A stretch of 61,298 bases of DNA from Hugenholtzia roseola DSM 9546 (GCF_000422585.1 NZ_KE383880.1:128001-189298), one strand, 5' to 3'. Numbered from the stretch's first letter, positions 12,360 through 54,868 are shown. Numbers and translations are program-made. Notes: generated by a model not told the origin, from the letters alone.

Positions 12360-12485
12360 AATTTGAGCGAAATAAAATTTGGATTGAACCTTTTTCGGGT
12401 CTGAAACGCCTTTGTGTTTCAATCAAACTTAGGACAAGGCAATGCCTTGTCCCTACATTTGAAAATGATTTTTTTAGAACCAAAC
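12360..12485 (+). repeat. MITE-like hairpin repeat, copy 1
   Basis: gaaataaaatttggattgaacc...tttcaatcaaacttaggacaaggcaatgccttgtccctacatttgaa...tttttagaac. Confidence 0.75.
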
Positions 12486-12516
12486 GCGATGGCAGCGAAT
12501 AGGGTCGGAAAACGCC

Positions 12517-13800
12517 CTACTTGCGCACCACTACTTGAAAATCCTTTCCGCCTCTTTGTACGAAGACAGCATTGCCTAAGTTGGTAAAGTTTTGTAGCAT
12601 TTCAGCATCATAGTTTTTTACCGTAATTAACTCTAAGTTAGATTCGAGGGTAAAATCTAATTGACTGCCCATGCTGGCTTGCAATGCCTCCAACTTTCTT
12701 TCGTCCGTATCCAAACAGACATAAAAAGCCGTTGCAGAAGTCTGTAAGAGGTTGATTTTGAGATTGAAACGGGCAAGCTCGTTGTGAATATACGCTAAGG
12801 TATTCTTTTCATTGATGGAAGCCAAATCGCGCTGCTGAAAAGTACAGAGCGTCTGATTGCCTTTTACGATAATGGCAGGCAGGGCAGGTTGTGTAGGGAA
12901 ATTTCCAATGACAGTGCCTTCTTGGTCGTAATTGATAAAAGAACGCACATAGAGCGGAATGTTTTTCGCCGCTAAGGGTCTGATGGTTTTGGGGTGAATG
13001 ACCGTCGCGCCGTAATAGGTCATTTCGGCAGCGTCTGAATAGTTGATGTGAGTGAAAAGACGGGTGCTTTTGATGCGTTTGGGGTCGGCATTTAAAATTC
13101 CTGCTACATCTTTCCAAATCGTAACCGACTCGGCTTGCAGGCAATAGGCAAAGATGGCAGCGGTAAAATCTGACCCTTCTCTGCCCAAAGTCGTTGTTTT
13201 GCCGCCTATCGTTCCGCCCAAAAAGCCTTGTGTGAGGATAAAACGCACATCTAAAATAGGCAGCAATTCGGATTTGATGAGCTGTTCCGACCATTCCCAA
13301 TCCACTTGCCCTTCGCGCCAACGCTCGTTGGTCTGGACAAACCTACGGGCATCTACCCAAAGGCATTTGTCGTTATAGACCGTTTTTAGATATTCAGCGA
13401 CAATGGCAGTAGAGATAAGTTCGCCAAAACAGATGATTTGGTCGTAGTGTTTGTCCCAAATGGGTTCTTGCTCCTCCAAAGTGGCTTCTAATTGGAAGAA
13501 ATACTTTTTGAGGGTACGAAAAATAACCGCCTCTTCATTTCCTTCGAAAAGGTCGAGGGCAATTTGTTGGTGATAGGCTTCTAATTCCTTCAAGACCTGT
13601 TTATAGACTTGCGGCTGCCCCTTTCGCGCGGCATGAAAAAGGTCTTCTAAGTGGTTGGTAGTCTTTCCCATAGCCGAAACGACGACGACAAGTTTGTCGC
13701 CCCTTTCGAGGTAGGTTTTAAGAATTTGGCTCACATTTCGAACCGCAGCGGCATCTTTAACCGATGCGCCGCCGAATTTGAATACTTTGATGGGATTCAA
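12517..13800 (-). CDS. lysC: aspartate kinase
   Basis: N-terminal MNPIKVFKFGGASVKDAAAVRNV... (amino-acid kinase fold). 427 aa, with ACT-like C-terminus. Confidence 0.9.
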   Translation of the reverse strand: MNPIKVFKFGGASVKDAAAVRNVSQILKTYLERGDKLVVVVSAMGKTTNHLEDLFHAARKGQPQVYKQVLKELEAYHQQIALDLFEGNEEAVIFRTLKKYFFQLEATLEEQEPIWDKHYDQIICFGELISTAIVAEYLKTVYNDKCLWVDARRFVQTNERWREGQVDWEWSEQLIKSELLPILDVRFILTQGFLGGTIGGKTTTLGREGSDFTAAIFAYCLQAESVTIWKDVAGILNADPKRIKSTRLFTHINYSDAAEMTYYGATVIHPKTIRPLAAKNIPLYVRSFINYDQEGTVIGNFPTQPALPAIIVKGNQTLCTFQQRDLASINEKNTLAYIHNELARFNLKINLLQTSATAFYVCLDTDERKLEALQASMGSQLDFTLESNLELITVKNYDAEMLQNFTNLGNAVFVQRGGKDFQVVVRK

Positions 13801-14174
13801 GCCGATAAAGAAATTAGAGGGGTGAATAATACGCTACAAGTCAATAAAATGGGCTTTTCGCCCAAGAAAAGAGAAGAATCTCGCTGCAAAGGTAGGCGAT
13901 TGTCGGGACATGAAAAATCAAATGCTTGTTAAATTTCTGTATTTGAAAGGGTAGTGAGCAGAAAAAAACGTCGACTTATTGCCTTTTGTGTATCTTTGTT
14001 TGGCAGATAGGGTTTTGAAACCAAATAGGCAGCCTCGCTGGGCAGTATCGAAAACCATCATAGCCGAAAGAAAGTTATGAACAGACCCACCTATTTGGAA
14101 TTTTAGCCTTTTACACACGAGATACGACTAAAAAATTTTACTACCTACAAGATTTATCACCTAATTTTCTTACC

Positions 14175-19194: not shown

Positions 19195-19292
19195 CCAAAG
19201 ACTAAGAGCCAACCCTAATTACTATCAACATAACATCATCTATTTATTTGAGGTTTCCTTTTCAATTTTCTAAGTCTGCTGCAAGTTTTGTG
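19195..19292 (-). pseudogene. decayed remnant of the 3' end of a SpoIIE/PP2C sensor gene, paralogous to 20900-20990
   Basis: About 85% nucleotide identity to 20899-20990 (the C-terminal coding end of the 1165-aa phosphatase). Its reverse complement encodes ...QNLQQT*KIEKETSNK*MM...DDVMLIVIRVGS*, aligning with ...QNLQQTLENWKGNLKQIDDITLIGIRIDP*. Two in-frame stops are present. Confidence 0.5.
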
Positions 19293-19564
19293 CTTGCAGG
19301 ATAGGCAGTTGCAAAGAGAATTTTGTGGCTTCAAAGTGGGATTATTTTTTTGCTAATATTTTTCTATTTTACTATCTTTGTAGTATCTTACAATGCAAAG
19401 CCAAGGTTTCGTTATTCGTAGTGTTCCCATAACCAGAAAATAGCCCAAATAGTAGTATTGTCAATAGTGCAAATCTCAAATAGCGGATACAAAAAGGCAT
19501 AAAAAAATAGTAATCTCTAAAAAAAGCGTATCTTCACACTCTAATTTAGCGCATAAAGCCCTTT
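19293..19564. repeat. about 280-bp Rpn-flanking repeat R, copy 1 (immediately upstream of rpn-1)
   Basis: About 90% identical to 20438-20722. It contains the block aaaagcataaaaaaat(a/g)gtaatctctaaaaaaa(g/t)cgta(t/c)cttcacactctaatt(t)agcgcataaag directly before the rpn start codon. Confidence 0.85.
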
Positions 19565-20413
19565 ATGGAAAACGAAAAACCTAATCAAAAAGAACAAAAT
19601 CTTTACGATAAAATTTTAAAGGAAAATATCTTATCGTATGTCTTACAATTTTCAGAAAAACAGTTGGGATTTCGCATCAAAAAGCACGCTTTATTAAAAG
19701 ATAAATTACAAACTACCTTAGAACGAGAGGCGGATTTTCTAATTTTTATCACCACCCAAGACGAAAAAGAATTTATCCTACAATTAGAGTTTCAAGCAAG
19801 AGATGAACCTAATATGGTGCTTCGTATGCAAGAATATCATGCCATTTTACAAAAAAAATACCAAATACCTGTTATTCAAATCGTTTATTACTTAGGCGAA
19901 ACGCCCAGCAATATGCGTGCTACCCTTGCGCCATCAGAGGTTTTCACAGGCTTTCAATTAAAATCTTTTAGAGATTATTCCTACAAAGAGTTTATCGAAT
20001 CTGAAAATGCCGAAGAGGTCATTATGGCAGTTTTGGCGGATTTCGAAAAGGAAAAGCAGGAAGAAGTGATTAGTAAAATTTTATTCCGCCTTTCGCAACT
20101 AAAAACAGATATTACTGCGTTAAATAAGTATGTCAAGCAGTTGCTTGTTTTGGCGCGTTTGCGCAATAAACTTCCAAAAATCATTCAAAACCAATTAGGC
20201 AATATGGGAACGATAGGATACGACATCGAAAAAGATGACTTTTATTTGCAAGGCTTAGAAAAGGGCAAAATAGAAGGTGAACGCGCTGGCGAGTTGAAGG
20301 CTCGTCATGAATTAGCGATTTCTTGCTTACAAGATGGGCTTTCTGTGGAGAAAACTGCTAAACTTACAAAATTATCCATCGAGGAAGTTCGGAAGTTGAG
20401 TAAAGAGTTGTAA
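19565..20413 (+). CDS. Rpn-family (YhgA-like) PD-(D/E)XK recombination-promoting nuclease / putative transposase
   Basis: N-terminal ...LEREADFLIFITTQDEKEFILQLEFQ... carries a D...E-x-Q core as in YhgA/Rpn nucleases. The C-terminal tail has GLEKGKIEGE repeats and an HTH-like end LSVEKTAKLTKLSIEEVRKL. Confidence 0.75.
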   Translation: MENEKPNQKEQNLYDKILKENILSYVLQFSEKQLGFRIKKHALLKDKLQTTLEREADFLIFITTQDEKEFILQLEFQARDEPNMVLRMQEYHAILQKKYQIPVIQIVYYLGETPSNMRATLAPSEVFTGFQLKSFRDYSYKEFIESENAEEVIMAVLADFEKEKQEEVISKILFRLSQLKTDITALNKYVKQLLVLARLRNKLPKIIQNQLGNMGTIGYDIEKDDFYLQGLEKGKIEGERAGELKARHELAISCLQDGLSVEKTAKLTKLSIEEVRKLSKEL

Positions 20414-20437
20414 GCCTGTTAGTCGTCTTCGGCTGTT

Positions 20438-20722
20438 GTTTGTGCAGGATAGTCAGCGGCAAAGAGAATTTTATGGCTCCAAAGTGGGGTTATTTTTTTG
20501 CTAATATTTTTCTATTTTGTTATCTTTGTAGTATCTTACAACGCAAATCCAAGGTTTCGTTATTCGTAGTGTCCCAGTGACCAAAAAGTAACCCGAATAG
20601 TAGTATTGTCAATAGTGCAAAGCTCAAATAACACATACAAAAAAGCATAAAAAAATGGTAATCTCTAAAAAAATCGTACCTTCACACTCTAATTAGCGCA
20701 TAAAGTCTTGTCTTTTCAAATT
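20438..20722. repeat. about 280-bp Rpn-flanking repeat R, copy 2 (downstream of rpn-1), with an orphan promoter-like block not followed by an rpn gene
   Basis: Direct repeat of 19293-19564. It is followed by a MITE-like element and then the 3' end of the phosphatase gene. Confidence 0.85.
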
Positions 20723-20857
20723 TAAAACAAAATAAAATTTGGGCAGAACCCTATTTTTGGGTACTAAAACCCTTTTTTGTTTCAATCTCACTTCGGACAA
20801 GGCAATGCCTTGTCCCTACATTTGAATCTGTTTTTTTAGAATTTAACATCACTGCCC
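20703..20857 (+). repeat. MITE-like hairpin repeat, copy 2
   Basis: Shares aaataaaatttgg ... tttcaatctcacttcggacaaggcaatgccttgtccctacatttgaa ... tttttagaatttaacatcactgcc with the other copies. Confidence 0.75.
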
Positions 20858-20899
20858 TTATAAGGCTTAGTCGCAGACGATAAGCCTTAGCCACGAAGA

Positions 20900-23800
20900 C
20901 TAAGGGTCAATCCTAATTCCTATCAAGGTAATATCATCTATTTGTTTGAGATTTCCCTTCCAATTTTCCAAAGTCTGCTGCAAGTTTTGTTTTTGCGCCT
21001 CTGTTGGCAGTAGAGGCAAAGTAGTGAGTAGATTTTTCAGGTTTGTTACCATAAACTTGCGCCCTCGCTCGCCGCCAAATTGGTCTTGGAAACCGTCAGT
21101 AAGAAGGTAGAAAAAAGTAGGCACTTGAATACTGCCCTGATGTAGCTCAAATTGGCGCGGTTTGTCCTTTTCCAACTGCCCTTGCTGCCCACCGATAGCC
21201 CTTTTCGTACCTTTAAGAATTTGTAGCGTAGGGGTTTGCTCGGCTTCGAGTGGCAAAAAATAAAGCGGATTCATCGCTCCTGCATAAGAAAAGGCAGAAT
21301 AACGCGGTCTTTGAGGTTCAAAATTCGCACTTTTTTCCAATGTTAGCACGACAATGTCCATGCCGTCGCGCACCTGTGAATCTTTTTGTTTGAGTGCTTC
21401 CATAATGCCCTGATGCAGTTGTGTCAGGATTTGAGCAGGCTCGATTATCTTTTCTAAATTGATAATTTTATTTAAAAGTTCGTTTCCTATCATAGACATA
21501 AAAGCACCGGGTACGCCATGCCCTGTGCAATCAGCAACGGCGATAAGTGTATGATTTTCAAGCTCTTGCAAGAAATAAAAATCACCTGAAACGATGTCTT
21601 TGGGCTGATATAAAATAAAGAAGTTTTCCTTTCCAAATGCCTTTTCGAAGCGGCTTTCGAAGGGCAAAATTGCCTCTTGTATGCGTTTGGCGTAATTGAT
21701 GCTGGCAGTGATGTTGTTATTTTTTTCTTCGAGGTCGTCTTTTTGTAGATTGACTAAATCTAAGGTTTGTCGCATTTCCTCATTAAGCTGTTTGAGATTT
21801 TCAGCCTGCACTTCTATTTCTTCTTTTTGCTGCTCTAATTCTAAATTTTTGAGTTGAATTTCCTCTGTTCTTTCCTTAACAAGGCGTTCCAAACGCAGCT
21901 TTGAAGCACGCAGGCGATAGGTATAAGCACGCACAAAGGCATAAAGAAGCCCAAATCCGAGCAATAAGAAAAGTCCATACGCCCACAAACGACGATACCA
22001 AGGCGGTGCAATCGTAAAAGCAACTTTTGTAGGCAAACTTTCTATTTTCTGGCTATTTCGCGCCTGCACCCAAAAAGTATAGTGTCCTTCGGGCAAGTTG
22101 GTGTATTCCTTGCGCCTTTGCTCTGTCCAATCCGACCAAGTTTCTTCATAACCTTCCAACCAATAGCGATAACGATTTTGGTCTTCCTGATAAAAAGAAG
22201 GCGCGGCATAGGTAAAAACAAGCGCATTGAAGCGGTAAGGTAGTTCGAAGGGAGCGATTTGACCACCACTTTCACCTCCAAACAGTAGGCTATCGCGATA
22301 CGCCAAACTGACTTTGCGAATCAAAGTCTGATAAGGGACAGACTTGCCCAAATCGTGTTCGGGTTTGTAGCGAAAAACGCCCAGTGCGGTAGCAAACCAA
22401 AATGTAGGCGATTCGGATTGAGTATCGTAATAAAAGCGCGAAAGATAGTCGGGCAGAGGTGCAAGGGTAAGGGTATCTTGTACCCAAGTGTCGGCTTGAT
22501 TGCCCTGCCCTTTTGTAGGCACTTGTTCAGATTTGAACAACAAAGTCTTAGCCGAGGGCATCACCCAGTAGGAGGGCTTCGAATCGGCGATTTCTTGCAA
22601 AGGCAATAGATAAGGATAGGCAAAACGCGGATTCTGCCAATCCAGACCCCAAGGATTGTAAGACTTAAAAGATTGACTTTTTTCATCAAAAGTATAAATA
22701 CCTGATGCAGTAGAAAAAAGAATTTGGTTCTGCCAAGCGATAATTTTACAACTCTCTATTTTTTCCAAGCCCTTTGTATGGAGTTGTACCTTTGCTGTTT
22801 CTACGCCTTTTTTTGAACCTCTATCTTCCTGAAAATCAATAGAATAGAAACCTTCCTTAGGCGACCCCACCCACACTCTACCATCTGCCTGCTCCTGCAC
22901 AGAGCGCGAAATGACCTGCTCGAAGGCGGGAATCTTGCCCACACGCAAAAATTTATCTTCTTCTGCCTGATAGCGCAGCACCTCAAAGCCTTGATAGTTG
23001 GCTTTATAGACAATGTTGCTATCTATTTTAGAACGCCCAATCGCCATATTTGCCCATTCGCCATCTATATTTTGTGCAATTTTTTTGTTTTTGATGTAAT
23101 AAAACCCATAATTTCCACCTGCCACAATTAGGTCATCTTGAAAAGGCAGGAGCTGCCAACATTGTGTAGAAGGCAAGTTTGCTATGCGTTTGAATAGCTC
23201 TGCTTCCAGATAAAAAAGTCCATCGTTGGCGGAAACATATAAGGTTTGGTCGGCACTACGACAAATATCTGTCGTATAACTTTTCAAATTTTGTGGCTCT
23301 TTGTAGGCTGTAAAAGGTAGATGAATCGCAATTTGACTCAAACCCTTATCGGTTGCTACCCAAAGTGCCTGATTTTTATCTACAAAAACATAGTTAATGC
23401 TATTACTAATTAGACCAGAAGCCTCGTCTATGTGGTACAAAGTTTTCCCTGCGGCATTAAAAATTAGCACCCCTCTATCTTTAATGCCTAATACATAAAT
23501 ATCCTCGCCTTTTTTATCCTTTAAATGCGTGGCTACATAAACGCCCCTATCTTTGAGCAAATGCTGGTCTTCGAGCGGAAAAGCACTCACTTGTTTGCTT
23601 TCAATATCATACAAAAAAAGAGAGTCTATATTAAGCGGACAAAATAAAATTTTCTTCTGACCATAAGGCAGAGCCGCACGCAGGCTTAGGCTATGCGTAA
23701 AGATGTAATGCTCGCTTTCTAAAATCCATTTTTGATTTTCGAATCGGTACAAGCCCTTGCTGGTTTCATTTTTCCAAAAACCTGTACCTACTTCAAAGAT

Positions 23801-24397
23801 GTCTATTTTATCCGTTTCTGCCTCTACCTGATGATAAGAAAAGGTGCTATCTTGGGTATGAAAAATGTAGAGCCTATCTTCGCTCGAAAAGTAAAGGTCT
23901 TTTTCTATTTGATGCACCTCGGTAATAAAGGGCGTTTTCTCGATGCTATCAGGCAGGTACGGACGTAGAGAATGGTACTGCCATTTCCCTAAGGCGTTGA
24001 TTTTGAGATAGCCAAGGTCGTCATCATTGGCGACATAAGCAAGTGTAGGGTCTTTTTTATCAAAAAGCAAATGCCGAACTACGCCCCCACCTGTCTGCAT
24101 CTGCTGCCACTCTGCACCATCATAGACGAGCAAAGCGTCGCGATTGCCTACATATAATTTGCCTTGTGCGTCTTGCGCAAGCGTCCAGAGAACGGACGAG
24201 GCTTGATAGATTTTCTTGTCATAATTCTGAATAAAAGGCGTTCCCCAGCGTAAAGTAGGAGCGAGAGTCTGCTTTGCATTTGAAAGTTCTTTTTTTTGGC
24301 TCTTTGCCTCAAATGTACAAAAAAACGCAAGCCCAAGCAAAAAAACAACTTTGAGCCAATATCTAAAAAAAATGTGTGTGAAAAAGAAAGGAGTCAT
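20900..24397 (-). CDS. sensor protein: signal peptide, two-component-regulator-propeller (Reg_prop) repeats, Y_Y_Y domain, TM helix, coiled coil, SpoIIE/PP2C phosphatase
   Basis: 1165 aa. The long N-terminal beta-propeller-like region is followed by YRYWLEGYEETWSDWTEQRRKEYTNLPEGHYTFWVQARNS (Y_Y_Y) and the TM helix WAYGLFLLLGFGLLYAFV. Then SINYAKRIQEAILP, DIVSGDFYF, ADCTGHGVPGAFMSMIG and TDGFQDQFGG. Confidence 0.8.
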   Translation of the reverse strand: MTPFFFTHIFFRYWLKVVFLLGLAFFCTFEAKSQKKELSNAKQTLAPTLRWGTPFIQNYDKKIYQASSVLWTLAQDAQGKLYVGNRDALLVYDGAEWQQMQTGGGVVRHLLFDKKDPTLAYVANDDDLGYLKINALGKWQYHSLRPYLPDSIEKTPFITEVHQIEKDLYFSSEDRLYIFHTQDSTFSYHQVEAETDKIDIFEVGTGFWKNETSKGLYRFENQKWILESEHYIFTHSLSLRAALPYGQKKILFCPLNIDSLFLYDIESKQVSAFPLEDQHLLKDRGVYVATHLKDKKGEDIYVLGIKDRGVLIFNAAGKTLYHIDEASGLISNSINYVFVDKNQALWVATDKGLSQIAIHLPFTAYKEPQNLKSYTTDICRSADQTLYVSANDGLFYLEAELFKRIANLPSTQCWQLLPFQDDLIVAGGNYGFYYIKNKKIAQNIDGEWANMAIGRSKIDSNIVYKANYQGFEVLRYQAEEDKFLRVGKIPAFEQVISRSVQEQADGRVWVGSPKEGFYSIDFQEDRGSKKGVETAKVQLHTKGLEKIESCKIIAWQNQILFSTASGIYTFDEKSQSFKSYNPWGLDWQNPRFAYPYLLPLQEIADSKPSYWVMPSAKTLLFKSEQVPTKGQGNQADTWVQDTLTLAPLPDYLSRFYYDTQSESPTFWFATALGVFRYKPEHDLGKSVPYQTLIRKVSLAYRDSLLFGGESGGQIAPFELPYRFNALVFTYAAPSFYQEDQNRYRYWLEGYEETWSDWTEQRRKEYTNLPEGHYTFWVQARNSQKIESLPTKVAFTIAPPWYRRLWAYGLFLLLGFGLLYAFVRAYTYRLRASKLRLERLVKERTEEIQLKNLELEQQKEEIEVQAENLKQLNEEMRQTLDLVNLQKDDLEEKNNNITASINYAKRIQEAILPFESRFEKAFGKENFFILYQPKDIVSGDFYFLQELENHTLIAVADCTGHGVPGAFMSMIGNELLNKIINLEKIIEPAQILTQLHQGIMEALKQKDSQVRDGMDIVVLTLEKSANFEPQRPRYSAFSYAGAMNPLYFLPLEAEQTPTLQILKGTKRAIGGQQGQLEKDKPRQFELHQGSIQVPTFFYLLTDGFQDQFGGERGRKFMVTNLKNLLTTLPLLPTEAQKQNLQQTLENWKGNLKQIDDITLIGIRIDP

Positions 24398-24780
24398 ATC
24401 GTGCCAATGCTATTTTTGGGTAGCCCCTGAAAGGCGCAAGAAAGGAGCGCGGTGAGAAAAACTATTTTTTGCCTACCAATAAGATGCTTTTCAGCGCATT
24501 TTACACATTTTTCGCCACAAAAAAGCTATTTTTTTGTTTTTTTTAGAAAAAAAGCTCTCAATAGCAAGCCCTACGATAGTTATTTCTGGAAATAAGTAAG
24601 GAAGAATAGGCTTAAACTCTGCTTTATCCGTATTCAAAAAAACACGCCTTTGGTCTTGTTCCACGACTACAACCTACCTTTTCAGCAAAGCTCAAATAAA
24701 ACGTACAAAAAAGCATAAAAAATGTAGTCGTATCCAAAAAAATTGTACCTTCACACTCTAATTAGCGCATAAAATCTTTT

Positions 24781-25641
24781 ATGGAAGACAAAAAACCTAA
24801 TCAAAAAGAACAAAACCTTTACGATAAAATTTTAAAAGAAAATATCTTATCGTATGTCTTGCAATTTTCAGAAAGGCAGTTGGGATTTTACATTAAAAAA
24901 CACGCTTTATTAAAAGATAAACTACAAACCACCTTAGAACGAGAAGCCGACTTTTTAGTTCTTATCACCACCCAAGACGAAAAAGAATTTATCCTGCAAT
25001 TAGAATTTCAGGCAAGAGATGAGCCAAATATGGTACTTCGCATGCAAGAGTATCATGCTATCTTACAAAAGAAGTATCAAAAACCTATTATTCAAATCGT
25101 ATATTACTTAGGTGAAACGCCCAGTAATATGCGTGCTACCCTTGCGCCTTCGGAGGTTTTTACAGGCTTTCAATTAAAATCTTTTAGAGATTATTCTTAC
25201 AAAGAATTTATCGAATCTGAAAATGCCGAAGAGGTCATTATGGCAGTTTTGGCGGATTTCGGAAAGGAAAAACAGGAAGAAGTCGTCAGTAAAATTTTAT
25301 TCCGCCTTTCGCAACTAAAAAGCGACGTTACTGCGTTAAATAAGTATGTCAAGCAGTTGCTTGTTTTAGCGCGTTTGCGCAATAAACTTCCAAAAATCAT
25401 TCAAAACCAATTAGGCGATATGGGAACGATAGGATACGACATCGAAAAAGATGACCTTTATTTACAAGGTTTGCAAAAGGGCGAGTTAAGAGGCTTAGAG
25501 AAAGGCTTAGAGAAAGGAAAGCTCGAAGCTCGCCGTGAATTAGCAATTTCTTGCTTACAAGACGGGCTTTCTGTAGAGAAAACTGCTAAACTTACAAAAC
25601 TATCCATCGAGGAAGTTCGCAAGTTGAGTGAGGAATTGTAA
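24781..25641 (+). CDS. Rpn-family PD-(D/E)XK nuclease, paralog of 19565-20413
   Basis: About 93% aa identity to rpn-1. It carries an 11-aa insertion (LRGLEKGLEKG) in the EKG-repeat tail. The same upstream promoter-like block lies at 24700-24780. Confidence 0.75.
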   Translation: MEDKKPNQKEQNLYDKILKENILSYVLQFSERQLGFYIKKHALLKDKLQTTLEREADFLVLITTQDEKEFILQLEFQARDEPNMVLRMQEYHAILQKKYQKPIIQIVYYLGETPSNMRATLAPSEVFTGFQLKSFRDYSYKEFIESENAEEVIMAVLADFGKEKQEEVVSKILFRLSQLKSDVTALNKYVKQLLVLARLRNKLPKIIQNQLGDMGTIGYDIEKDDLYLQGLQKGELRGLEKGLEKGKLEARRELAISCLQDGLSVEKTAKLTKLSIEEVRKLSEEL

Positions 25642-25728
25642 GTTTATTAGGTGTACTTCGTCGTTACTTGTGCAGGATAGTGAGTGGCAAAAACAATTTT
25701 GTAGCTTCAAAGGGTGTTTTTTGCTATT

Positions 25729-25790
25729 TTTGTAGTATCTTACAGCGCAAATCAAAGATTTGCCGCACTGATAGGTCGTAGTCGGAGACT
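25729..25790. repeat. inverted-repeat element IR-a (left arm)
   Basis: tttttgtagtatcttacagcgcaaatcaaagatttgccgcactgatagg is the reverse complement, with few mismatches, of 26826-26877 and 27243-27294. It contains the internal hairpin gcaaatc-aaa-gatttgc. Confidence 0.7.
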
Positions 25791-27187: not shown

Positions 27188-27242
27188 TTGTGCCAAGTTT
27201 TGAATTTGTGTTTTTGTAACACTCACACGACCTCTTAAAATC

Positions 27243-27294: not shown

Positions 27295-27424
27295 CAAAAA
27301 ACAAATACAAAATGCTATTTTTTAGATGTTTTGATAGCAGCAGCCCTGCAAAGCGAAGATTTAGTTTTATTTTTTGTATTCAGAAGACTTTGCCGAATGG
27401 GGAGTAGCAATATCAAGTCTTGCG

Positions 27425-27545
27425 AAAAGCCTTATCTTATTAAATTGGAAACAAAATAAAATTAGGCTCAAACCTTGTTTTGAGCCTAAAAACTCTTTTT
27501 ATTTCAATCTCACTTCGGACAAGGCAGTGCCTTGTCCCTACTCAC
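27425..27545 (+). repeat. MITE-like hairpin repeat, copy 3
   Basis: ...ttggaaacaaaataaaattaggctcaaaccttgttttgagcct...tttcaatctcacttcggacaaggcagtgccttgtccctac. Confidence 0.75.
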
Positions 27546-27755
27546 GCATAAACAAAAATAGGCAGGCTTGTGCCTTGGGTCTGTCTTCTTCAAAAAGAGG
27601 CTACTCAACCGCTTCTTAACACAAACCTAAATAGTAGGCTCATAAAAAGGCTATTTTTTCCTTTTTCAAGAAAAAAACAGCCAATTTTAAAATTTATCCA
27701 AATAAATGAGCCTTTGCGAGTCGCTTGTTGTGGTCTGCCCACGATTTAGAGGAGG

Positions 27756-45582: not shown

Positions 45583-47520
45583 TTATAGCTTTATTCCCAC
45601 AATCGTAACGTCGTCGCGTTGGGGTTCTTTTTGTTTATGTGCCTCGAAGAACCGCTCCAAAATTTCTTTCTGGCGGCTCAAACTCTGCCTATGCACCTGT
45701 TCGAGGGTTTGGGCAAAGCGCAGACTGCCAAATTTTTCGCGAGCCGCATTGTTTTGGTCGGCAAAACCGTCAGTGGTGAGGTAGAGGATTTCGCCCTTGC
45801 GTAGGCTCAATACTTGGTTGTTAAAAGGCTGATTTTCAGACTTTTGTCTGCCTCCGATACCGCGCTTGTCCCCTTTTAGCAAGTGGAGTTTGCCATTTTT
45901 GGTGTAATAAAGCGTGCGTTTTGCACCTGCAAAGGTAACGATTTTCTGGTCTGTGCCATCATCGATGCAACAAAGACAAATATCCATGCCGTCGCTATTT
46001 TTGCCTTCTTGTTGGTGCAATGCGTTTTTGATTTCAATATGCAGCACTTCTAAAATCATGGCAGGGTCATAAATTTTGCTCTGCCCCACAATTTTATTGA
46101 GCAAAGTATGCCCAATCATAGACATAAAAGCACCGGGTACGCCATGCCCTGTGCAATCGACAACGGCAATAAAAGTGCGCCTTTTTTTGCGAAACAACCA
46201 ATAAAAATCGCCCGACACCAATTTTTGGGGCTTGTAAATCACGAAACTATCCTCGAAAAAAGCATTTAATTCCTCCTCGGTAGGCAAAACGGCTTCTTGA
46301 ATTTGCTGCCCATAGCGGATACTATCCATAATTTTTTCTTGCGAATGAGCAATTTGGTCAGATTGAAGTTGAATTTGAGCAATATTATTTTGTACTGTTT
46401 CAAGCATTTTAGCAAAATCATTAGAGAGCCAACCTATTTCATCATTGCTTTTTACTTGTTCTAATTTAATACTTTCTGAAAAATTATTTTTAATGACTTT
46501 ATGAATAGAATTAGATAATTTTCGTACAGGTTTGCTCAAATATTGTGTAACGAAAAGACTTAGTAAAATATTAGACACAATGCAAAGCAGCACTACGCCT
46601 ATAAGCGTGAGTTTGATGCGCTCTTTAAGTGCCAAACTTTTCTCGGTCGCCTCCTTCTGAATGTGGTCTATTGATTTTTGTATCTCCAAAGAAAGCACCG
46701 AAAACTCTTGCAACAAGCCATCACCTTTTTTAAGTCCTATTTTTTCTTCATAAGTTACTAATTGAGTAAAAGTATCGCGATAACTCGTGAGCAAAGCAAT
46801 CATTTTATCGCGCTCTTCTGGATTGCGCACCGAAAGGGCAATGTCCCTTCGCAGGCTATCTACCATGACTAAAAGTTTGGCGATATAAATTTTTTCTTTT
46901 CTAATAATAAAATCTTTTTCATAACGACGAATCATTAACATTTTTTCCTTGTCGAAAGGAAAAGGCGAAGATTCTATCCGATGGATATAACGCCTCATTC
47001 TGCCCTCTACACCAAAATCTTTGAAACCGCGCAAATTGATAAGCAAAATGAGGCTATCAAAGCGCGTTTCGTAGCGCACCAAAAGCCGCCTAATGTCTGC
47101 AATATCCATCTGAATAGCCAAATTGCTAATCTCTTTTCTATTTTCTAAGGTTTGAAGTTGCTGCAAAACCTCGCGCAACCTTTTTTTGCGCTCTTTCAAA
47201 TAAGGGCTATCTCCTTTCCGATAATATTCGGGGTTGATAGTTTCATTGCTAAAAAAATCTTTTTCTAAGGATTGTATTTTTACGACATTAAAATTGATTT
47301 TTCCTACCAAGCTCATAAACTCATCTATTTCGCTGCGGCGATAGTCAAACCAAAAAGTAACCATGATGATACAGCCCATCAAAAGCAAAAAGCTAAGAAA
47401 GGTAACTTCTAATTTGAACTTTAAACTCCTAAATTTCGAGGGCGTATCAGTAGGCATGCGCTTGGGTGCATTTTTTTGCTGCAAAGGTAAAGGCTTGCTT
47501 CTATGTTTTGATTGCCTCAA
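45583..47520 (-). CDS. membrane sensor: TM1, periplasmic domain, TM2, HAMP, coiled coil, SpoIIE/PP2C phosphatase
   Basis: Two TM helices (FLSFLLLMGCIIMVTFWF and LIGVVLLCIVSNILLSLFV). HAMP-like KPVRKLSNSIHKV...DEIGWLSNDFAKML. Then IRYGQQIQEAVLP, LVSGDFYW, VDCTGHGVPGAFMSMIG and TDGFADQ. Confidence 0.8.
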   Translation of the reverse strand: MRQSKHRSKPLPLQQKNAPKRMPTDTPSKFRSLKFKLEVTFLSFLLLMGCIIMVTFWFDYRRSEIDEFMSLVGKINFNVVKIQSLEKDFFSNETINPEYYRKGDSPYLKERKKRLREVLQQLQTLENRKEISNLAIQMDIADIRRLLVRYETRFDSLILLINLRGFKDFGVEGRMRRYIHRIESSPFPFDKEKMLMIRRYEKDFIIRKEKIYIAKLLVMVDSLRRDIALSVRNPEERDKMIALLTSYRDTFTQLVTYEEKIGLKKGDGLLQEFSVLSLEIQKSIDHIQKEATEKSLALKERIKLTLIGVVLLCIVSNILLSLFVTQYLSKPVRKLSNSIHKVIKNNFSESIKLEQVKSNDEIGWLSNDFAKMLETVQNNIAQIQLQSDQIAHSQEKIMDSIRYGQQIQEAVLPTEEELNAFFEDSFVIYKPQKLVSGDFYWLFRKKRRTFIAVVDCTGHGVPGAFMSMIGHTLLNKIVGQSKIYDPAMILEVLHIEIKNALHQQEGKNSDGMDICLCCIDDGTDQKIVTFAGAKRTLYYTKNGKLHLLKGDKRGIGGRQKSENQPFNNQVLSLRKGEILYLTTDGFADQNNAAREKFGSLRFAQTLEQVHRQSLSRQKEILERFFEAHKQKEPQRDDVTIVGIKL

Positions 47521-47847: not shown

Positions 47848-48090
47848 ATGCCCACAATCCGCATTTCTACCCCCCAAGAAGAGCCAACGCTTTATGAGCA
47901 GCAAATGGAGCGTTTGATGCAAAATCTACAAGAAGATTACGAGCAACTTCTAAAACAGACCTTTTTTAGCAACCAACAACCTGTTAATCCCCTGAATTTG
48001 AGAAAGTTACGCGACATGACGCGCCGTATCAACGAGCATTGTAGCGCACTTTTGGCATATCGTGAGAAGATAGAACATTTGAAAAAATAA
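47848..48090 (+). CDS. small hypothetical protein (80 aa)
   Basis: ORF with ordinary composition upstream of recF; no recognised family. Confidence 0.3.
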   Translation: MPTIRISTPQEEPTLYEQQMERLMQNLQEDYEQLLKQTFFSNQQPVNPLNLRKLRDMTRRINEHCSALLAYREKIEHLKK

Positions 48091-48289
48091 GCCCTTTCAA
48101 TATCATAAAAAACGGCTATGTTTATAGACTTTTACGGAACTAATCGGAAAACTGGTTAGTTCTATTTTTTATTTTTATATTTTTTTCGTATTTTTTAAAT
48201 CTAAAAATTTATACCTCCCCTATCCTGCAAGACTTTTTTTCACAAAAATCAAAGCCCTGCTGCTTTCCCCGTTGATGTTAAGTTCTGGA

Positions 48290-48456
48290 AAAAGTCTTGT
48301 TTTTCGAATGAGAAACAAAATAAAATTTGGGCTGAACCTTATTTTTTGGCAGGAAAACTCTTTTTTATTTCAATCTCACGACAGGTAGGGCAGTAGCTTA
48401 TCCCTATCTTTCCACCTACTAACTTTTAGAATTTAATACCACTGCCGCTTTCCCTC
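48290..48456 (+). repeat. MITE-like hairpin repeat, copy 4 (variant central hairpin)
   Basis: ...cgaatgagaaacaaaataaaatttgggctgaacc...tttcaatctcacgacaggtagggcagtagcttatccctatc...tttagaatttaataccactgcc. Confidence 0.7.
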
Positions 48457-51394: not shown

Positions 51395-51465
51395 ACAAAA
51401 ATTAGGCAAAATCAGACTTCATCAGCCTTGCACAGGCTTCCCTTCATTTCTATCCCTTTCTTCCC

Positions 51466-52830
51466 ATGCGGCTCTCTCGGTTTTATTTCTATCGCACACA
51501 ACTGCGGCTTTCCCTTCCGATAATGTTGGGTCAGATTTCGACGATTCTCATCTCGATTTCGGATACTTTGATGGTAGGAAAGTATAATAGCATTGATTTG
51601 GCAGGTGTGGCGTTTGCCAATAGCCTTTTTTATAGTGCTTTTGTCTTGGGTATAGGCATCTGTTTCGCGCTCAAACCCTTAGTTGCGAATGCTGATGCAG
51701 CCAAAAATCAGACTTTGGTGCAGATTTTTCTCCGCAATAGTGTGAGTTTGGGCATCTTATTGGGTGTGCTTTCTTGCCTTGCACTACTGTTGCTAACGCT
51801 TTTCGCGCCCTATATGGGGCAGGAAGAAGTGGTCTTGAAAGCGGCTCTACCTTACTTGCAAGTGATTGCCCTATCGATGATTCCGCTCTTTATGTTTGCG
51901 GTTCTTAAAGAGTTTAGCGAAGCCCTGCGGCTTCCCAAAATAGGCATGACGGTCAATATTTTAGGGAGTATCTTCAATATTTTGCTAAACTACTTACTTA
52001 TTTTTGGAAACTACGGCTTTCCCGAAATGGGTCTGATGGGTGCGGCTTGGGCAACTTTCATTTCGCGCGTCTTGATGCTTTTGATAATGGTAGTGGTATT
52101 TTTTCTAAATAAAAATCTATTCCCTTATGCAGCCAATTTATTTCGTCCGCTTTTTGATGGCGAAATTATAAGAAAAATCATCAACTTGGGTTTTCCTATC
52201 GGCATACAACTTTTTTCGGAAACTACTGCCTTTTCTGTGGCGGGGATTTTGGTAGGTATGATAAGCAAAGAGGCGATGGCGGCTCACCAAATTGTTCTCA
52301 ATGTGGCATCGGCGACCTTCCTGACGGCTCTGGGGCTTGCACAAGGCACGACGGTAAATGTAGCCAATTTGATGGGGAAAAAGCAGGCGCGTTTTGTAAG
52401 TCAGATGGGAAATTCCGCCCTCTTTTTAGCCTTAGGATTTATGTCGGTAACGGCTGCCTTGTTATTGATTTTTCGCCATGAAATCCCTTGGCTTTTTCTC
52501 AATGAAAACGACGTTTTAGCTCCACAAATTGCCCTAATTGCCAGTCATCTTTTTATTGCAGCAGGCTTTTTCCAACTTTCAGATGGCGCACAGGTGGTAT
52601 CAGCAGGCAATCTTAGAGGCTTAGAAGACACCAAAATTCCTACCTACATCACCCTTTTTGCCTATTGGGGCGTTGCCATTCCAGTAGGCTACCTCATGGC
52701 TTTTGGTCTTGATTGGGGCGCAATGGGCATTTGGATAGGCTTGTCCTTAGGACTTACGATTGCTGCCATTCTACTACTCCTTCGCTTTTGGCGATTGACA
52801 AGGCAAATAAATTTGAAAGAAGCAGAATAA
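51466..52830 (+). CDS. MATE-family efflux transporter
   Basis: 454 aa with 12 predicted TM segments and a NorM-like pattern. Confidence 0.8.
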   Translation: MRLSRFYFYRTQLRLSLPIMLGQISTILISISDTLMVGKYNSIDLAGVAFANSLFYSAFVLGIGICFALKPLVANADAAKNQTLVQIFLRNSVSLGILLGVLSCLALLLLTLFAPYMGQEEVVLKAALPYLQVIALSMIPLFMFAVLKEFSEALRLPKIGMTVNILGSIFNILLNYLLIFGNYGFPEMGLMGAAWATFISRVLMLLIMVVVFFLNKNLFPYAANLFRPLFDGEIIRKIINLGFPIGIQLFSETTAFSVAGILVGMISKEAMAAHQIVLNVASATFLTALGLAQGTTVNVANLMGKKQARFVSQMGNSALFLALGFMSVTAALLLIFRHEIPWLFLNENDVLAPQIALIASHLFIAAGFFQLSDGAQVVSAGNLRGLEDTKIPTYITLFAYWGVAIPVGYLMAFGLDWGAMGIWIGLSLGLTIAAILLLLRFWRLTRQINLKEAE

Positions 52831-52945
52831 AATTTGGACTTAAACCCTAAGGGTCTTGAAGACCCTTAGGGTTTGGGGTATAGGACAAGGCATGCTTTGT
52901 CCCTGCCTTAGTATAAAATTTTAGAACTTAACACTGATACGCTAA
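52826..52945 (+). repeat. MITE-like hairpin repeat, copy 5; overlaps the MATE stop codon
   Basis: aataaaatttggacttaaaccctaagggtcttgaagacccttagggttt...ggacaaggcatgctttgtccc...tttagaacttaacactg. It also carries an extra perfect 14-bp hairpin. Confidence 0.7.
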
Positions 52946-53100
52946 TAAGCGTTTTTGATATTTGCTTTTTCAAAGATAATATTTTAACTTTGCTACTGTA
53001 TCGAAGACAAAATCCTCTCTTTTTTTTGGTTTGTCAAATGCAGATATTTTGGATTTTGAATAGATTTCTTTTTTATTTGTAATTTATTAAAATTAAAAAC

Positions 53101-54684
53101 ATGACACCGAAAAATAAACTTTTTTATGGCGACAACTTAGAAGTTTTGAGAAAGCATGTCAAGGACGAAAGTGTAGATTTATGCTACATAGACCCGCCTT
53201 TTAATTCTAAACGAAATTACAACCAAATTTATAATAATATCGGAAAAGAAGACAAAGCACAGGCGCAGGCTTTTGTAGATACTTGGACTTGGAATGGTAT
53301 CGCAAATGAGGGTTTTGATGAAATTGTGAGCAATAAAAATGGTGTTTTTACAAAACAAAGTATCAACCTTATTTTGGGGCTTGAAAAAGTGCTGGGACGA
53401 GGAAGCCTCTTGTCTTATTTGGTGAGCATGACGCAGCGCATAGCCGAAATTTATCGAGTTTTGAAGCCGACAGGTTCATTTTACCTGCATTGCGACCCAA
53501 CGGCAAGCCATTATCTAAAATTGGTCTTAGATGCTATCTTCTGTTCACAAGGTGGAGATTTTAGAAACGAAATTGTTTGGCACTATCGAAGATGGACAAA
53601 TGTGCAGCAGCAGTTTCAAAGCATGCATGATATTATTCTTTTCTACTCGAAATCAAACAACTCAACTTTTAATTTTACGGAAGTTGATATGTCAGAAAAT
53701 CAAAAGAAAAAAGTTGCCAGAGGTTGGGATAGTAATGTTATTTCGTCAGATAAAGAGAAATATTCGCAGCTAATTGTCTATAATAAAGAAAAGTTTGAAA
53801 GTGCAGTAGAAAGTGGAAAATTAAATCCAGAAAAATATAAAAATATAATTTTTAGAGAAAAAGCAACAGTAGCAGCTTCTGACGTAATTATCCTGCCTTC
53901 TCTAAATTCACAAGCCAAAGAAAGATTAGGCTACCCTACTCAAAAACCTGAACAGTTATTAGAAAAAATTATCCAAGCCAGTTCAAACGAAGGCGATGTC
54001 ATTTTAGACTGTTATTGTGGCTGTGGCACAACGATAGCCGTTGCCGAAAGGCTCAATAGGCAGTGGGTAGGAATAGATATTACGTATCAATCTATTTCGC
54101 TGATAATGAAGCGTTTAGAAGATAGTTTTGGCAAGTCTGTGTTAGAAAAAATCACCTTATCGGGTATTCCCGAAGACATGGAGAGTGCCATAGCGTTAGC
54201 CAATAAACAAGACGACCGAACACGCAAAGAATTTGAAAAGTGGATAGTGCTGACCTACTCAAACAACCGCGCCGTCATTAACGACAAAAAAGGAGGCGAC
54301 GGCGGCATCGACGGAACAGCCTTTATCATAGATTACAACGAGGCGCAGGAGCAAGAATTTCAGCAAGTTCTCTTTTCTGTAAAATCCAACAAAAGCCTTT
54401 CGCCGACGGTCATTCGCGACTTGTATGGCACAGTAGAAAGAGAAAAAGCCGTTATGGGCTTTTTTCTAACCTTATACCCAATGCCCAACTTGGTAAAGGA
54501 AGCCGAAAAGTATGGCAATTATCAAAACAAAATGCTCGGTCAGACGTATCCGAAAATAACCGTTGTGAGTGTGCAGGAAATCTTGGCAGGCAAGCGCATG
54601 CATCTGCCCACAAGCGTAGAAGTTCTCAAAAAGGCTGTGCGAAAAGCACAAGATAACAATAACAAAGGATTTTTTAATGAATAA
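53101..54684 (+). CDS. beta-class N6-adenine/N4-cytosine DNA methyltransferase fused to a C-terminal Mrr-like PD-(D/E)XK nuclease domain
   Basis: Motif IV DLCYIDPPFNSK near the N-terminus. Motif I ILDCYCGCGTTIAV about 270 aa later (beta permutation). The C-terminal about 180 aa carries KKGGDGGIDGTAFIIDY...VLFSVKS, resembling the Mrr_cat core. Low GC. Confidence 0.7.
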   Translation: MTPKNKLFYGDNLEVLRKHVKDESVDLCYIDPPFNSKRNYNQIYNNIGKEDKAQAQAFVDTWTWNGIANEGFDEIVSNKNGVFTKQSINLILGLEKVLGRGSLLSYLVSMTQRIAEIYRVLKPTGSFYLHCDPTASHYLKLVLDAIFCSQGGDFRNEIVWHYRRWTNVQQQFQSMHDIILFYSKSNNSTFNFTEVDMSENQKKKVARGWDSNVISSDKEKYSQLIVYNKEKFESAVESGKLNPEKYKNIIFREKATVAASDVIILPSLNSQAKERLGYPTQKPEQLLEKIIQASSNEGDVILDCYCGCGTTIAVAERLNRQWVGIDITYQSISLIMKRLEDSFGKSVLEKITLSGIPEDMESAIALANKQDDRTRKEFEKWIVLTYSNNRAVINDKKGGDGGIDGTAFIIDYNEAQEQEFQQVLFSVKSNKSLSPTVIRDLYGTVEREKAVMGFFLTLYPMPNLVKEAEKYGNYQNKMLGQTYPKITVVSVQEILAGKRMHLPTSVEVLKKAVRKAQDNNNKGFFNE

Positions 54685-54761
54685 AACCTATGAATGTGGA
54701 AACTAATAGAAAAAACAGTTAAAAAATATTTTATATTCAATTAAATTCTGTTACGTTTTAT

Positions 54762-54868
54762 GAAAAGCCTTGTCTTTTCGAATTGGAAACGAAATAAAAT
54801 TTGGGTCTGAAAGCCTTTTTTATTTCAATCTCACTTCGGACAAGGCAGTGCCTTGTCCCTACAAAAGC
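54762..54868 (+). repeat. MITE-like hairpin repeat, copy 6
   Basis: gccttgtcttttcgaattggaaacgaaataaaatttgggtctgaaagcc...tttcaatctcacttcggacaaggcagtgccttgtccctac. Confidence 0.75.

What the first reader, a model, noticed from the sequence alone, without database searches (positions are those of the whole stretch)
12360..54868. Family of 110-170-bp hairpin repeats, six copies, all on the same strand
Copies lie at 12360-12485, 20703-20857, 27425-27545, 48290-48456, 52826-52945 and 54762-54868. They share a 5' box (a)aataaaatttgg, a variable middle often carrying its own perfect hairpin, and a conserved tttcaatctcacttcggacaaggca(a/g)tgccttgtccctaca (9-bp stem, 3-nt loop). Several also carry a 3' box tttagaa(t/c)ttaaca(t/c)cactg. 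All are intergenic, often at gene 3' ends; one overlaps the MATE stop codon. All six have the same orientation regardless of neighbouring gene direction, which has about 3% chance. This is unusual for MITEs and suggests a transcribed structured RNA, a strand-specific REP-like element, or replication-orientation bias.
Basis: seen in the sequence. Interest (0 to 1): 0.55.

Follow-up and report, generated by a model that had tools for sequence, protein, structure and literature searches.

The report
REP-hairpin repeat family, one orientation
The six repeats are real and are built around a small DNA hairpin of a known type (a GTAG-tagged REP, the kind handled by RayT/RAYT transposases), so this is a lineage-specific member of a known class of bacterial repeats whose shared orientation is suggestive but unproven.

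Summary
There are six copies of a 110-170-bp repeat, all in one orientation and all between genes. No further copy lies on either strand of this Hugenholtzia roseola window. The conserved 9-bp-stem hairpin, read on the minus strand, is 5'-GTAG-GGACAAGGC-AYT-GCCTTGTCC. That is the anatomy of a GTAG-tagged REP. The same 22-mer occurs in 110 stretches from about 49 assemblies across many phyla. In four of those stretches it lies in frame inside a RayT-like Y1/HUH transposase gene, which is the published hallmark of TnpA_REP subclass 2.4 (RAYT group 4). The REP block is far better conserved than the rest of the element (24/25 invariant columns against 49/98). Orientation does not follow neighbouring transcription: two copies sit in minus-direction contexts, two in plus-direction contexts and two between convergent genes. 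The GTAG strand is the inferred lagging-strand template, as expected for single-strand HUH transposition. That rests on six copies (p about 0.03) and an indirect inference of replication direction. No RAYT gene could be checked in H. roseola. No Rfam family matches and no covariation appears outside the REP. Verdict: new member of a known kind, modest interest.

The parts
12340..12500 (+). Copy 1 (E1). It lies between aspartate kinase (12517-13800, -) and an NfeD-like gene (11796-12296, -). The 3' box is partial.
20697..20864 (+). Copy 2 (E2), full length with 5' box, middle, REP and 3' box. It lies between convergent genes 19565-20413 (+) and 20900-24397 (-). Its left junction sits where paralogous regions carry a gene start.
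27420..27550 (+). Copy 3 (E3), which ends right after CTAC. It lies between 26960-27310 (-) and the HTH/S24 gene 27756-28607 (-). Its middle forms an 11-bp perfect hairpin.
48286..48456 (+). Copy 4 (E4), full length but with a decayed REP. It lies after small ORF 47848-48090 (+) and the hairpin at 48136-48163, and before a recF-like gene at 48540 (+).
52807..52948 (+). Copy 5 (E5), the most divergent copy. It has a 16-bp perfect palindrome in the middle. Its left arm encodes the last residues and the stop codon of the MATE gene.
54761..54895 (+). Copy 6 (E6), with the middle region deleted. It lies between convergent genes 53101-54684 (+) and 55073-55897 (-).
12432..12456 (-). REP hairpin of E1. 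On the minus strand it reads GTAG-GGACAAGGC-ATT-GCCTTGTCC.
20795..20819 (-). REP hairpin of E2 with GTAG tag
27517..27541 (-). REP hairpin of E3 with GTAG tag
54838..54862 (-). REP hairpin of E6 with GTAG tag
52883..52906 (-). Variant REP of E5 (GGACAAGGCATGCTTTGTCC + CTGC). It has an 8-bp stem with one G-T pair, and the tag is GCAG.
48383..48407 (-). Decayed REP of E4 (AGGTAGGGCAGTAGCTTATCCCTAT). It has one compensatory pair and several mismatches, and the tag is ATAG.

Best explanation
The six copies belong to a dispersed DNA repeat seen only in this Hugenholtzia roseola window (Bernardetiaceae, Cytophagales, Bacteroidota); it was not found in the few relatives and collections that could be searched. 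The functional core of the repeat is a GTAG-tagged REP hairpin. It is the kind of hairpin recognised as folded single-stranded DNA by REP-associated tyrosine (Y1/HUH) transposases, known as RAYT, RayT or TnpA_REP, specifically subclass 2.4 (Bertels group 4). The rest of the 110-170-bp unit is flanking sequence that travels with the REP. This includes the 5' box AAATAAAATTTGG, a hairpin-prone middle, the box TTTCAATCTCACTTC and an optional 3' box.

Shown here: the hairpin anatomy; the occurrence of the same hairpin across phyla; its in-frame presence inside RayT-like genes in other genomes; its much stronger conservation than the rest of the unit; and the independence of copy orientation from neighbouring transcription.

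Inferred, not shown: a RAYT in this genome binds the REP on the strand that carries 5'-GTAG (the window's minus strand). That strand is exposed as the lagging-strand template when the fork passes right to left. The RAYT cuts and rejoins there, so new copies land in one orientation relative to replication, as is documented for the related IS200/IS605 transposases.
For: - **Family is real:** The six copies are well above chance.
- **REP anatomy:** On the minus strand the core reads GTAG plus a 9-bp stem and a 3-nt loop. These are the only perfect GTAG-tagged hairpins of 8 bp or more in the window, and all four have GTAG on the minus strand.
- **Cross-phylum hairpin:** The 22-mer GGACAAGGCANTGCCTTGTCCC occurs in 110 stretches from about 49 assemblies. 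They include Cyanobacteriota, Bacteroidota, Chloroflexota, Hydrogenedentes, CPR and others. The flanks are unrelated apart from GTAG/CTAC, which flank 65 of about 190 oriented matches.
- **Link to RayT genes:** In L008, L040, L065 and L098 the hairpin lies in frame inside a Y1/HUH gene, between the HUH and Tyr motifs. The motifs are MPNHIHGII, WQ.RFY and YI..NP. Pfam Y1_Tnp scores 2.9e-8 and NCBIfam REP_Tyr_transpos 5.6e-17. Homologues carry the source name 'REP element-mobilizing transposase RayT'.
- **Match to the literature:** This fits the published description of TnpA_REP subclass 2.4. That description gives motifs NH[IFV]H / WQ / YIxNNP, abundance in Cyanobacteria and Bacteroidetes, long and 'double foot' GTAG..CTAC REPs, and REPs inserted in frame in tnpA_REP (PMC6006769).
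- **Selective conservation of the REP:** The REP block has 24/25 invariant columns against 49/98 elsewhere in the four best copies, Fisher p=8e-6. Whole-unit identity is only 52-82%.
- **Position:** Every copy lies after a gene 3' end, as is typical of REPs (PMC3733652).
- **Orientation versus transcription:** The contexts are two unidirectional minus, two unidirectional plus and two convergent, yet all copies share one orientation.
- **Replication direction:** The L3-L4-L23-L2-S19-L22 operon is on the minus strand. GC3 skew is -0.137 in + genes and -0.061 in - genes. Both put the GTAG strand on the lagging-strand template, which is the active-strand position for IS200/IS605 (PMC3333891, PMC6006769).
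- **Multi-copy in the genome:** Short-read contigs of the same genome end inside the REP or at other repeats.
Against: - No RAYT gene is in the window (tblastn). None from Hugenholtzia appeared in the two top-120 lists of homologues.
- Mobilisation of REPs by RAYTs has never been shown in vivo in any organism (PMC8266576).
- There is only one REP per unit. REPINs have inverted pairs and IS200/IS605 have two subterminal hairpins, so how a whole 110-170-bp unit would be cut out is unclear.
- The non-REP boxes are conserved and unexplained.
- Six of six copies in one orientation has p=0.03 only. Replication direction is inferred from one operon and a weak skew (whole-window GC skew -0.011).
- Copies are 52-82% identical, so they are old. 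No empty-site or polymorphism evidence for movement was obtained.
Confidence: 0.6

Rival explanations
1. The repeat is a family of small RNA genes, or another strand-specific RNA element, transcribed from the + strand. On this reading the 5' box acts as a Bacteroidetes-type -7 promoter element. The conserved single-stranded UUUCAAUCUCACUUC would be a seed. The REP hairpin plus the downstream U-run would be the 3' end.
For: The non-REP boxes are conserved. TAAAATTTG in the 5' box is one base off the Bacteroidetes -7 consensus TAnnTTTG (own knowledge), with a TTG about 22 nt upstream. Five of six copies fold better than shuffles, with z from -2.0 to -6.7. A T-run follows the REP by 15-20 nt in copies 1, 2 and 6. 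Orientation independent of the neighbours is what stand-alone genes would show.
Against: No Rfam family matches even at E<=5. RNAalifold finds only the REP hairpin, with a covariation term of 0. The middle hairpin forms in different registers or is deleted. The promoter spacing and the -7 motif do not fit the consensus. The best-conserved part is a DNA hairpin shared with RayT systems in other phyla. The composite was not found in relatives or metagenomes.
Confidence: 0.15
2. The repeat is an ordinary REP-type element with no real strand bias. On this reading the six-of-six orientation in this window is a sampling accident, and the fit with replication direction is a coincidence.
For: The two-sided p-value is only 0.031 for n=6. 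The window was chosen because something looked odd, which is a selection effect. Published REP families usually occur in both orientations, often as inverted dimers (PMC3733652). GC skew in the window is weak.
Against: No copy or fragment in the opposite orientation exists anywhere in 61 kb. The orientation matches the prediction from the single-strand HUH mechanism.
Confidence: 0.3
3. The repeat is a non-autonomous IS200/IS605 derivative (PATE-type MITE), mobilised by a TnpA(IS200) and perhaps carrying TnpB guide-RNA remnants. On this reading it is not a RAYT substrate.
For: The repeat is strand-specific and hairpin-based, which fits peel-and-paste single-strand transposition (PMC3333891). 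It has no terminal inverted repeats and no target duplications.
Against: Only one conserved hairpin is present, not similar left-end and right-end hairpins. The GTAG tag at the hairpin foot is the signature of REPs. The identical hairpin lies inside RayT-type (class 2) genes, not IS200-type genes. No tnpA or tnpB homologue is in the window. No omega-RNA or other family appears in the Rfam scans.
Confidence: 0.07
4. The repeat is a transcription terminator or 3'-UTR stabiliser module selected at gene ends.
For: All copies follow a gene 3' end. On the minus strand, copy 3's middle hairpin with TTTTATTTTG is scored terminator-like. REPs are known to affect mRNA stability and termination (PMC3733652).
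Against: Only one of six copies meets the terminator criteria. The neighbouring genes have separate terminator-like hairpins lying between the gene and the element: 27682-27649 and 27575-27560 (-), 55011-54991 and 54978-54947 (-), and 48136-48163 (+). The unit is read in opposite senses by different upstream genes.
Confidence: 0.1

Closest known systems
GTAG-tagged REPs associated with TnpA_REP subclass 2.4 / RAYT group 4 (Quentin et al. 2018, PMC6006769; Bertels et al. 2017, PMC5581495)
   Same: Both have a GTAG tetranucleotide at the 5' foot of a long perfect stem with a short loop. Both occur in Bacteroidota and Cyanobacteriota. The identical stem sequence is found in frame inside RayT-like genes with NHIH / WQ / YIxNNP motifs in other genomes.
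   Different: In H. roseola the REP has a single foot (GTAG on one side only). It is always embedded at a fixed position in a 110-170-bp conserved unit. The cognate RAYT gene has not been seen in this genome.
REPs regularly joined to other conserved tracts (Di Nocera et al. 2013, PMC3733652). Examples are degenerate GTAG-1 units joined to unrelated stem-loops, present in hundreds of copies in P. putida and P. fluorescens, and A. variabilis GTAG-15 dimers inside long palindromes.
   Same: In each case a REP plus an unrelated, conserved, hairpin-prone neighbour is amplified together as one unit. The units lie mostly after ORFs, and some supply a stop codon to the flanking gene.
   Different: The phylum differs, because the paper reported no GTAG REPs in Bacteroidetes. 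The companion sequence also differs. Here the REPs are single rather than dimers, and all copies seen share one orientation.
REPINs (Bertels and Rainey 2011, PMC3116915)
   Same: Both are REP-based, non-autonomous, intergenic repeat populations thought to depend on a single-copy RAYT.
   Different: A REPIN is two REPs in inverted orientation forming one long hairpin. Here there is one intact REP, plus at most a half-site in direct orientation at the left end.
IS200/IS605 insertion sequences and their PATE derivatives
   Same: Both involve recognition of a single-strand hairpin by a Y1/HUH enzyme, with a guide tetranucleotide 5' of the hairpin foot. For IS200/IS605 the active strand lies on the lagging-strand template, giving an orientation bias with respect to replication (PMC3333891, PMC6006769).
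   Different: IS200/IS605 elements have two similar subterminal hairpins and defined cleavage tetranucleotides. Neither is seen here, and there is no transposase gene within the unit.

Membership tests
GTAG-tagged REP | Short (20-40 nt) palindrome able to form a stem-loop | tested here: met
   The stem GGACAAGGC/GCCTTGTCC has 9 bp (10 with A-T) and a 3-nt loop, and is perfect in 4 of 6 copies.
GTAG-tagged REP | Conserved GT[AG]G at the 5' foot of the hairpin on one strand | tested here: met
   GTAG is on the minus strand in copies 1, 2, 3 and 6. It is GCAG in copy 5 and ATAG in copy 4.
GTAG-tagged REP | Many copies per genome, intergenic, mostly downstream of ORFs | tested here: inconclusive
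   The window has 6 copies in 61 kb, all intergenic and all after a gene 3' end. Short-read contigs of the same genome break at the REP. The genome-wide count was not obtainable.
GTAG-tagged REP | A cognate RAYT/TnpA_REP gene in the same genome, usually flanked by the REP | not testable with these tools
In four other genomes the same hairpin lies inside RayT-like genes.
REPIN | Two REPs in inverted orientation separated by a short spacer | tested here: not met
   Each unit has a single intact REP, and no inverted second REP lies within or next to any copy.
IS200/IS605-derived MITE (PATE) | Similar subterminal hairpins at both ends on the same strand, and ends matching a full-length IS | tested here: not met
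   Only one hairpin is conserved, and the middle hairpin is variable or absent. No Y1 or TnpB coding sequence is in the window.
Classical MITE | Terminal inverted repeats and target-site duplication | tested here: not met
   No terminal inverted repeats were found in the four copies scanned (copies 1, 2, 4 and 6). The flanks of the two full-length copies show no duplication.
Known structured RNA family (Rfam 15) | Match to a covariance model | tested here: not met
   The only hit at gathering score is a tRNA at 10531-10615. At E<=5, no hit is shared among the copies; the only one touching any copy is a chance-level rnk_leader match (E 1.1, 28 bits against a gathering score of 50) overlapping the left part of copy 5.
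Intrinsic terminator | G+C-rich hairpin directly followed by a T-run, oriented with the upstream gene | tested here: not met
   Only copy 3's middle hairpin clearly fits, and it was scored on both strands; copy 1's REP was also flagged on the minus strand, with a weak T tail. Copies lie in both senses relative to upstream genes.

The most novel reading that the evidence does not exclude
A single-REP composite unit in a Bacteroidota genome spreads strictly in one orientation relative to the replication fork. If true genome-wide, it would be natural, in-genome evidence that RAYT-type enzymes move REPs through the lagging-strand template, a step that is still unproven for any REP system. It would also make H. 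roseola a clean system in which to test that step. An alternative novel reading is that the unit is an unrecognised REP-derived small RNA family.
Probability: 0.2. Interest if true: 0.6.

Novelty: new member of a known kind. Interest (0 to 1): 0.3.

Why it matters
REPs are among the commonest bacterial repeats, yet how they spread is still unresolved. RAYTs cut REPs in vitro, but no transposition has been seen. Most REP families occur as inverted pairs, which hides any strand preference. A family made of single, asymmetric REP units can show such a preference directly. If the one-way orientation seen here holds across the H. roseola chromosome and flips at the origin and terminus, it would link REP spread to replication forks. 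If it does not hold, this is simply one more lineage-specific REP family. It would still extend GTAG REPs to Cytophagales and mark the points where short-read assemblies of this genome break.

Tried and rejected
- **Rfam scans:** Scans at gathering score and at E<=5 found nothing shared among the elements; the only overlap is a chance-level rnk_leader hit (E 1.1) on the left part of copy 5.
- **Literature search on the 10-mer:** GGACAAGGCA returned only unrelated primer and shRNA papers.
- **Metagenome scans for the composite:** The first found 0 hits. The second found one hit that is a chance match inside a coding ORF, with no REP.
- **Viral contigs:** A scan for the hairpin found 0 hits.
- **Profile search in other loci:** The six-copy profile found no copy in 5.3 kb left of the window (L111) or in 21-kb loci around the aspartate kinase gene of two Bernardetiaceae relatives (L114, L115). 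Outside the window it matched only the REP part.
- **Reaching the rest of the genome:** Exact-protein look-ups returned only short Logan contigs that end at repeats. The one genome-contig scan did not return the source genome.
- **Looking for a Hugenholtzia RAYT:** Two homologue searches, one with a profile of four RayT-like proteins and one with a Rufibacter RayT, showed no Hugenholtzia protein in the top 120 of more than 5000 hits each.
- **Partial tandem duplication idea:** I tested whether the 5' extension is a copy of the post-REP 3' part. Local alignment scores are not above shuffles (z mostly 0-2). Only the REP half-sites stand out: GCCTTGTC in copy 6 and GACAAGGCAA in copy 5.
- **Outer stem idea:** Pairing of AAATAAAA with TTTTRTTT was dropped as low-information A/T pairing that RNAalifold does not support.
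- **Sigma-70 promoter scan:** It was not informative for a Bacteroidota genome.
Full report
**Observation.** The six copies exist where stated. A mechanical repeat search recovers five of them as one family and the 5' box in all six. A profile built from the six copies finds exactly these six in the window, all on the + strand, with E-values from 1e-28 to 1e-45. The only minus-strand hits are weak ones inside the copies, where the palindromes match themselves, so there is no extra copy on either strand. The hairpin GGACAAGGCANTGCCTTGTCC is exact in copies 1, 2, 3 and 6, against 0.00 matches expected from shuffles. Copy 5 carries a one-base-shorter variant and copy 4 a decayed one. Whole-unit identity is only 52-82%.

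**Source organism.** The aspartate kinase gene of the window is 100% identical to that of Hugenholtzia roseola (Bernardetiaceae, Cytophagales, Bacteroidota). The next relatives are at 79% and about 70%.

**What the conserved hairpin is.** A scan of one genome per species for the 22-mer returned 110 stretches from about 49 assemblies.
- Most are Cyanobacteriota (Laspinema, Oscillatoria, Microcoleus, Nostocaceae and others).
- Bacteroidota are also represented (Bacteroidales, Flammeovirgaceae, Adhaeribacter, Saprospiraceae, Prolixibacteraceae).
- The rest include Chloroflexota, Hydrogenedentes, a CPR bacterium and others.

The flanks are unrelated except for GTAG before and CTAC after the palindrome, seen in 65 of about 190 oriented matches. 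None of these stretches carries the Hugenholtzia 5' box or TTTCAATCTCAC box next to the hairpin.

Clustering all ORFs of these stretches showed one recurrent family next to the hairpin, in L008, L040, L065 and L098.
- The hairpin lies inside this gene, in frame, between an HUH motif (MPNHIHGII) and the WQ.RFY / YI..NP motifs.
- The proteins hit Pfam Y1_Tnp (2.9e-8) and NCBIfam REP-associated tyrosine transposase (5.6e-17, below its cut-off, presumably because of the inserts).
- Thousands of homologues exist, mostly Bacteroidota where named, and many are labelled 'REP element-mobilizing transposase RayT' by their source.

This matches the published TnpA_REP subclass 2.4 (RAYT group 4) point for point (Quentin et al. 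2018, PMC6006769).
- Its motifs are NH[IFV]H, WQ and YIxNNP.
- Its REPs are 'canonical long' or 'double foot' (GTAG...CTAC).
- Uniquely, its REPs are inserted in frame within the tnpA_REP gene.

Read on the window's minus strand, the Hugenholtzia hairpin is 5'-GTAG-GGACAAGGC-AYT-GCCTTGTCC-GAAG. That is a single-foot GTAG REP. These four are the only perfect GTAG-tagged hairpins of 8 bp or more in the window.

**The unit around the REP.** The REP sits at a fixed place in a larger conserved unit. The unit has a left arm ending in AAATAAAATTTGG and a homologous middle that can form a hairpin. That hairpin is perfect only in copies 3 and 5, and the region is deleted in copy 6. Then come the box TTTCAATCTCACTTC and the REP. 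Copies 2, 4, 5 and partly 1 also have a right arm with TTTAGAAYTTAACAYCACTG.
- In the four best copies the REP block is invariant at 24 of 25 columns, against 49 of 98 elsewhere (Fisher p=8e-6). The hairpin is therefore the part under constraint.
- RNAalifold supports only the REP hairpin, with no covariation energy.
- No terminal inverted repeats appear in the four copies scanned, and the two full-length copies show no target duplications.
- No Rfam family matches the copies.
- The left end carries a REP half-site: GCCTTGTC in copy 6 and GACAAGGCAA in copy 5. A broader similarity between the left arm and the post-REP sequence is not above chance.

REPs joined to other conserved tracts and amplified as a unit have been described in other phyla (Di Nocera et al. 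2013, PMC3733652).

**Context and orientation.** Every copy lies after at least one gene 3' end.
- E1 and E3 lie between minus-strand genes.
- E4 and E5 lie between plus-strand genes. For E4 the upstream gene is a small ORF at 47848-48090 with its own terminator-like hairpin.
- E2 and E6 lie between convergent genes.

The unit is thus read in opposite senses by different upstream genes. Several neighbours have their own terminator-like hairpins between the gene and the element.

For replication direction I have only proxies.
- The L3-L4-L23-L2-S19-L22 operon is on the minus strand. Such operons are nearly always co-directional with the fork (established knowledge).
- Third-position GC skew is -0.137 in plus-strand genes and -0.061 in minus-strand genes. 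This implies a replicative skew of about -0.04 on the + strand.

Both proxies make the minus strand the leading-strand sequence and therefore the lagging-strand template. That is the strand carrying 5'-GTAG plus the hairpin. It is also the position of the active 'top' strand of IS200/IS605 elements, whose Y1 transposases are the closest studied relatives of RAYTs (PMC3333891, PMC6006769).

**Most likely mechanism.** The family is a REP-based, DNA-level repeat.
- Shown: the REP identity, its link to RayT genes elsewhere, its selective conservation and its transcription-independent orientation.
- Inferred: an H. roseola RAYT binds the folded REP on single-stranded minus-strand DNA at the fork, and copies or moves the REP with its attached flanks. 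That would give one orientation per replichore.

**Weak points.**
- No RAYT gene could be sought in the rest of the genome. Only short Logan contigs that end at repeats were reachable.
- REP transposition has never been demonstrated in vivo (PMC8266576).
- A single-REP unit does not fit the REPIN or IS200/IS605 two-hairpin models.
- The conserved non-REP boxes have no assigned role.
- The orientation statistic is n=6, p=0.03, in a window picked for looking odd.

**Rivals.** The rivals are an sRNA gene family (not excluded; needs RNA-seq), an ordinary REP family whose orientation here is chance, an IS200/IS605-derived MITE, and a terminator module. The last two fail defining features tested here.

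**Distribution.** The composite unit was not found in 21-kb loci of two Bernardetiaceae relatives, in JGI metagenomes or in viral contigs. As far as these searches reach, it is specific to the Hugenholtzia lineage.

**Verdict.** The family is a new member of a known kind: a GTAG REP of the RAYT subclass 2.4 type embedded in a lineage-specific composite unit. Interest is modest. It would rise if a genome-wide map shows a strict, replichore-dependent orientation.

Noticed in passing
Genome-contig loci L001-L110 (e.g. L040 3188-3883, L098 3521-4225, L065 4477-5091, L008 1768-2406): The identical 22-nt REP stem occurs in about 49 assemblies from many phyla. In four loci it is translated in frame inside RayT-like genes, as GTRHCLVPT or RDKALPCPY depending on the frame. 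Sharing of one exact REP sequence between cyanobacteria, Bacteroidota and Chloroflexota suggests horizontal spread of this REP/RAYT pair.
   Followed up: partly
L041 about 3330-3370, L088 about 2355-2395, L005 about 4380-4415, L101 about 6610-6650: In other genomes the REP sits at the tip of a second, unrelated palindrome. An example is AAGGGCATTAC-REP-AATAGCCCTTTTT, which looks like a terminator hairpin split by the REP. It is as if REPs insert into hairpin loops.
   Followed up: no
L018, L026, L093 (Bacteroidales MAG); L023, L066, L086, L094, L096 (cyanobacteria): Tandem heptanucleotide repeats lie directly beside the REP hairpin in several genomes. Examples are GAACTAT, GGACCAA, GGACAAG-like and GAATTCA.
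   Followed up: no
window 52807-54895: Copies E5 and E6 bracket, in direct orientation, a single gene (53101-54684). It encodes a fused N6/N4 DNA methylase and Mrr-type restriction endonuclease domain. An Eco57I-like gene lies nearby at 56050-57666. The bracketing may be a coincidence or may reflect repeat-mediated gain of a restriction-modification gene.
   Followed up: no
window 19198-20971 and 24685-25761: A paralogous gene family (19565-20413 and 24781-25641, no Pfam hit for the one scanned, 19565-20413) has a conserved upstream region of about 290 bp. A third copy of that upstream region (20421-20709) is followed by element E2 exactly where the paralogues have the start codon. A gene copy therefore seems to have been lost or replaced at the E2 junction.
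   Followed up: partly
window 4408-6663, 20900-24397, 45583-47520: Three large minus-strand ORFs share 50-61-nt DNA blocks at 66-93% identity (4940-5076, 21486-21622, 46112-46248). The two scanned with Pfam (20900-24397 and 45583-47520) are SpoIIE-phosphatase sensor proteins. A short-read contig of the same genome breaks at one of these blocks.
   Followed up: no
window 54905-54935 and 54991-55011: C/G-run hairpins of the CCCTCCCC...GGGGAGGG type lie downstream of the minus-strand gene at 55073. A similar hairpin flanks the REP in Adhaeribacter terreus (L042).
   Followed up: no
window 61017-61139: A tandem repeat of 21-nt period lies inside the minus-strand ORF 60903-61238. It probably encodes a repetitive, coiled-coil-like peptide.
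   Followed up: no
Logan contigs L112, L113 (SRR896243): The short-read assembly of the same genome is cut inside the REP of E1 (at window 12436) and about 100 nt after E6. This REP family is a practical cause of assembly fragmentation in this organism.
   Followed up: partly
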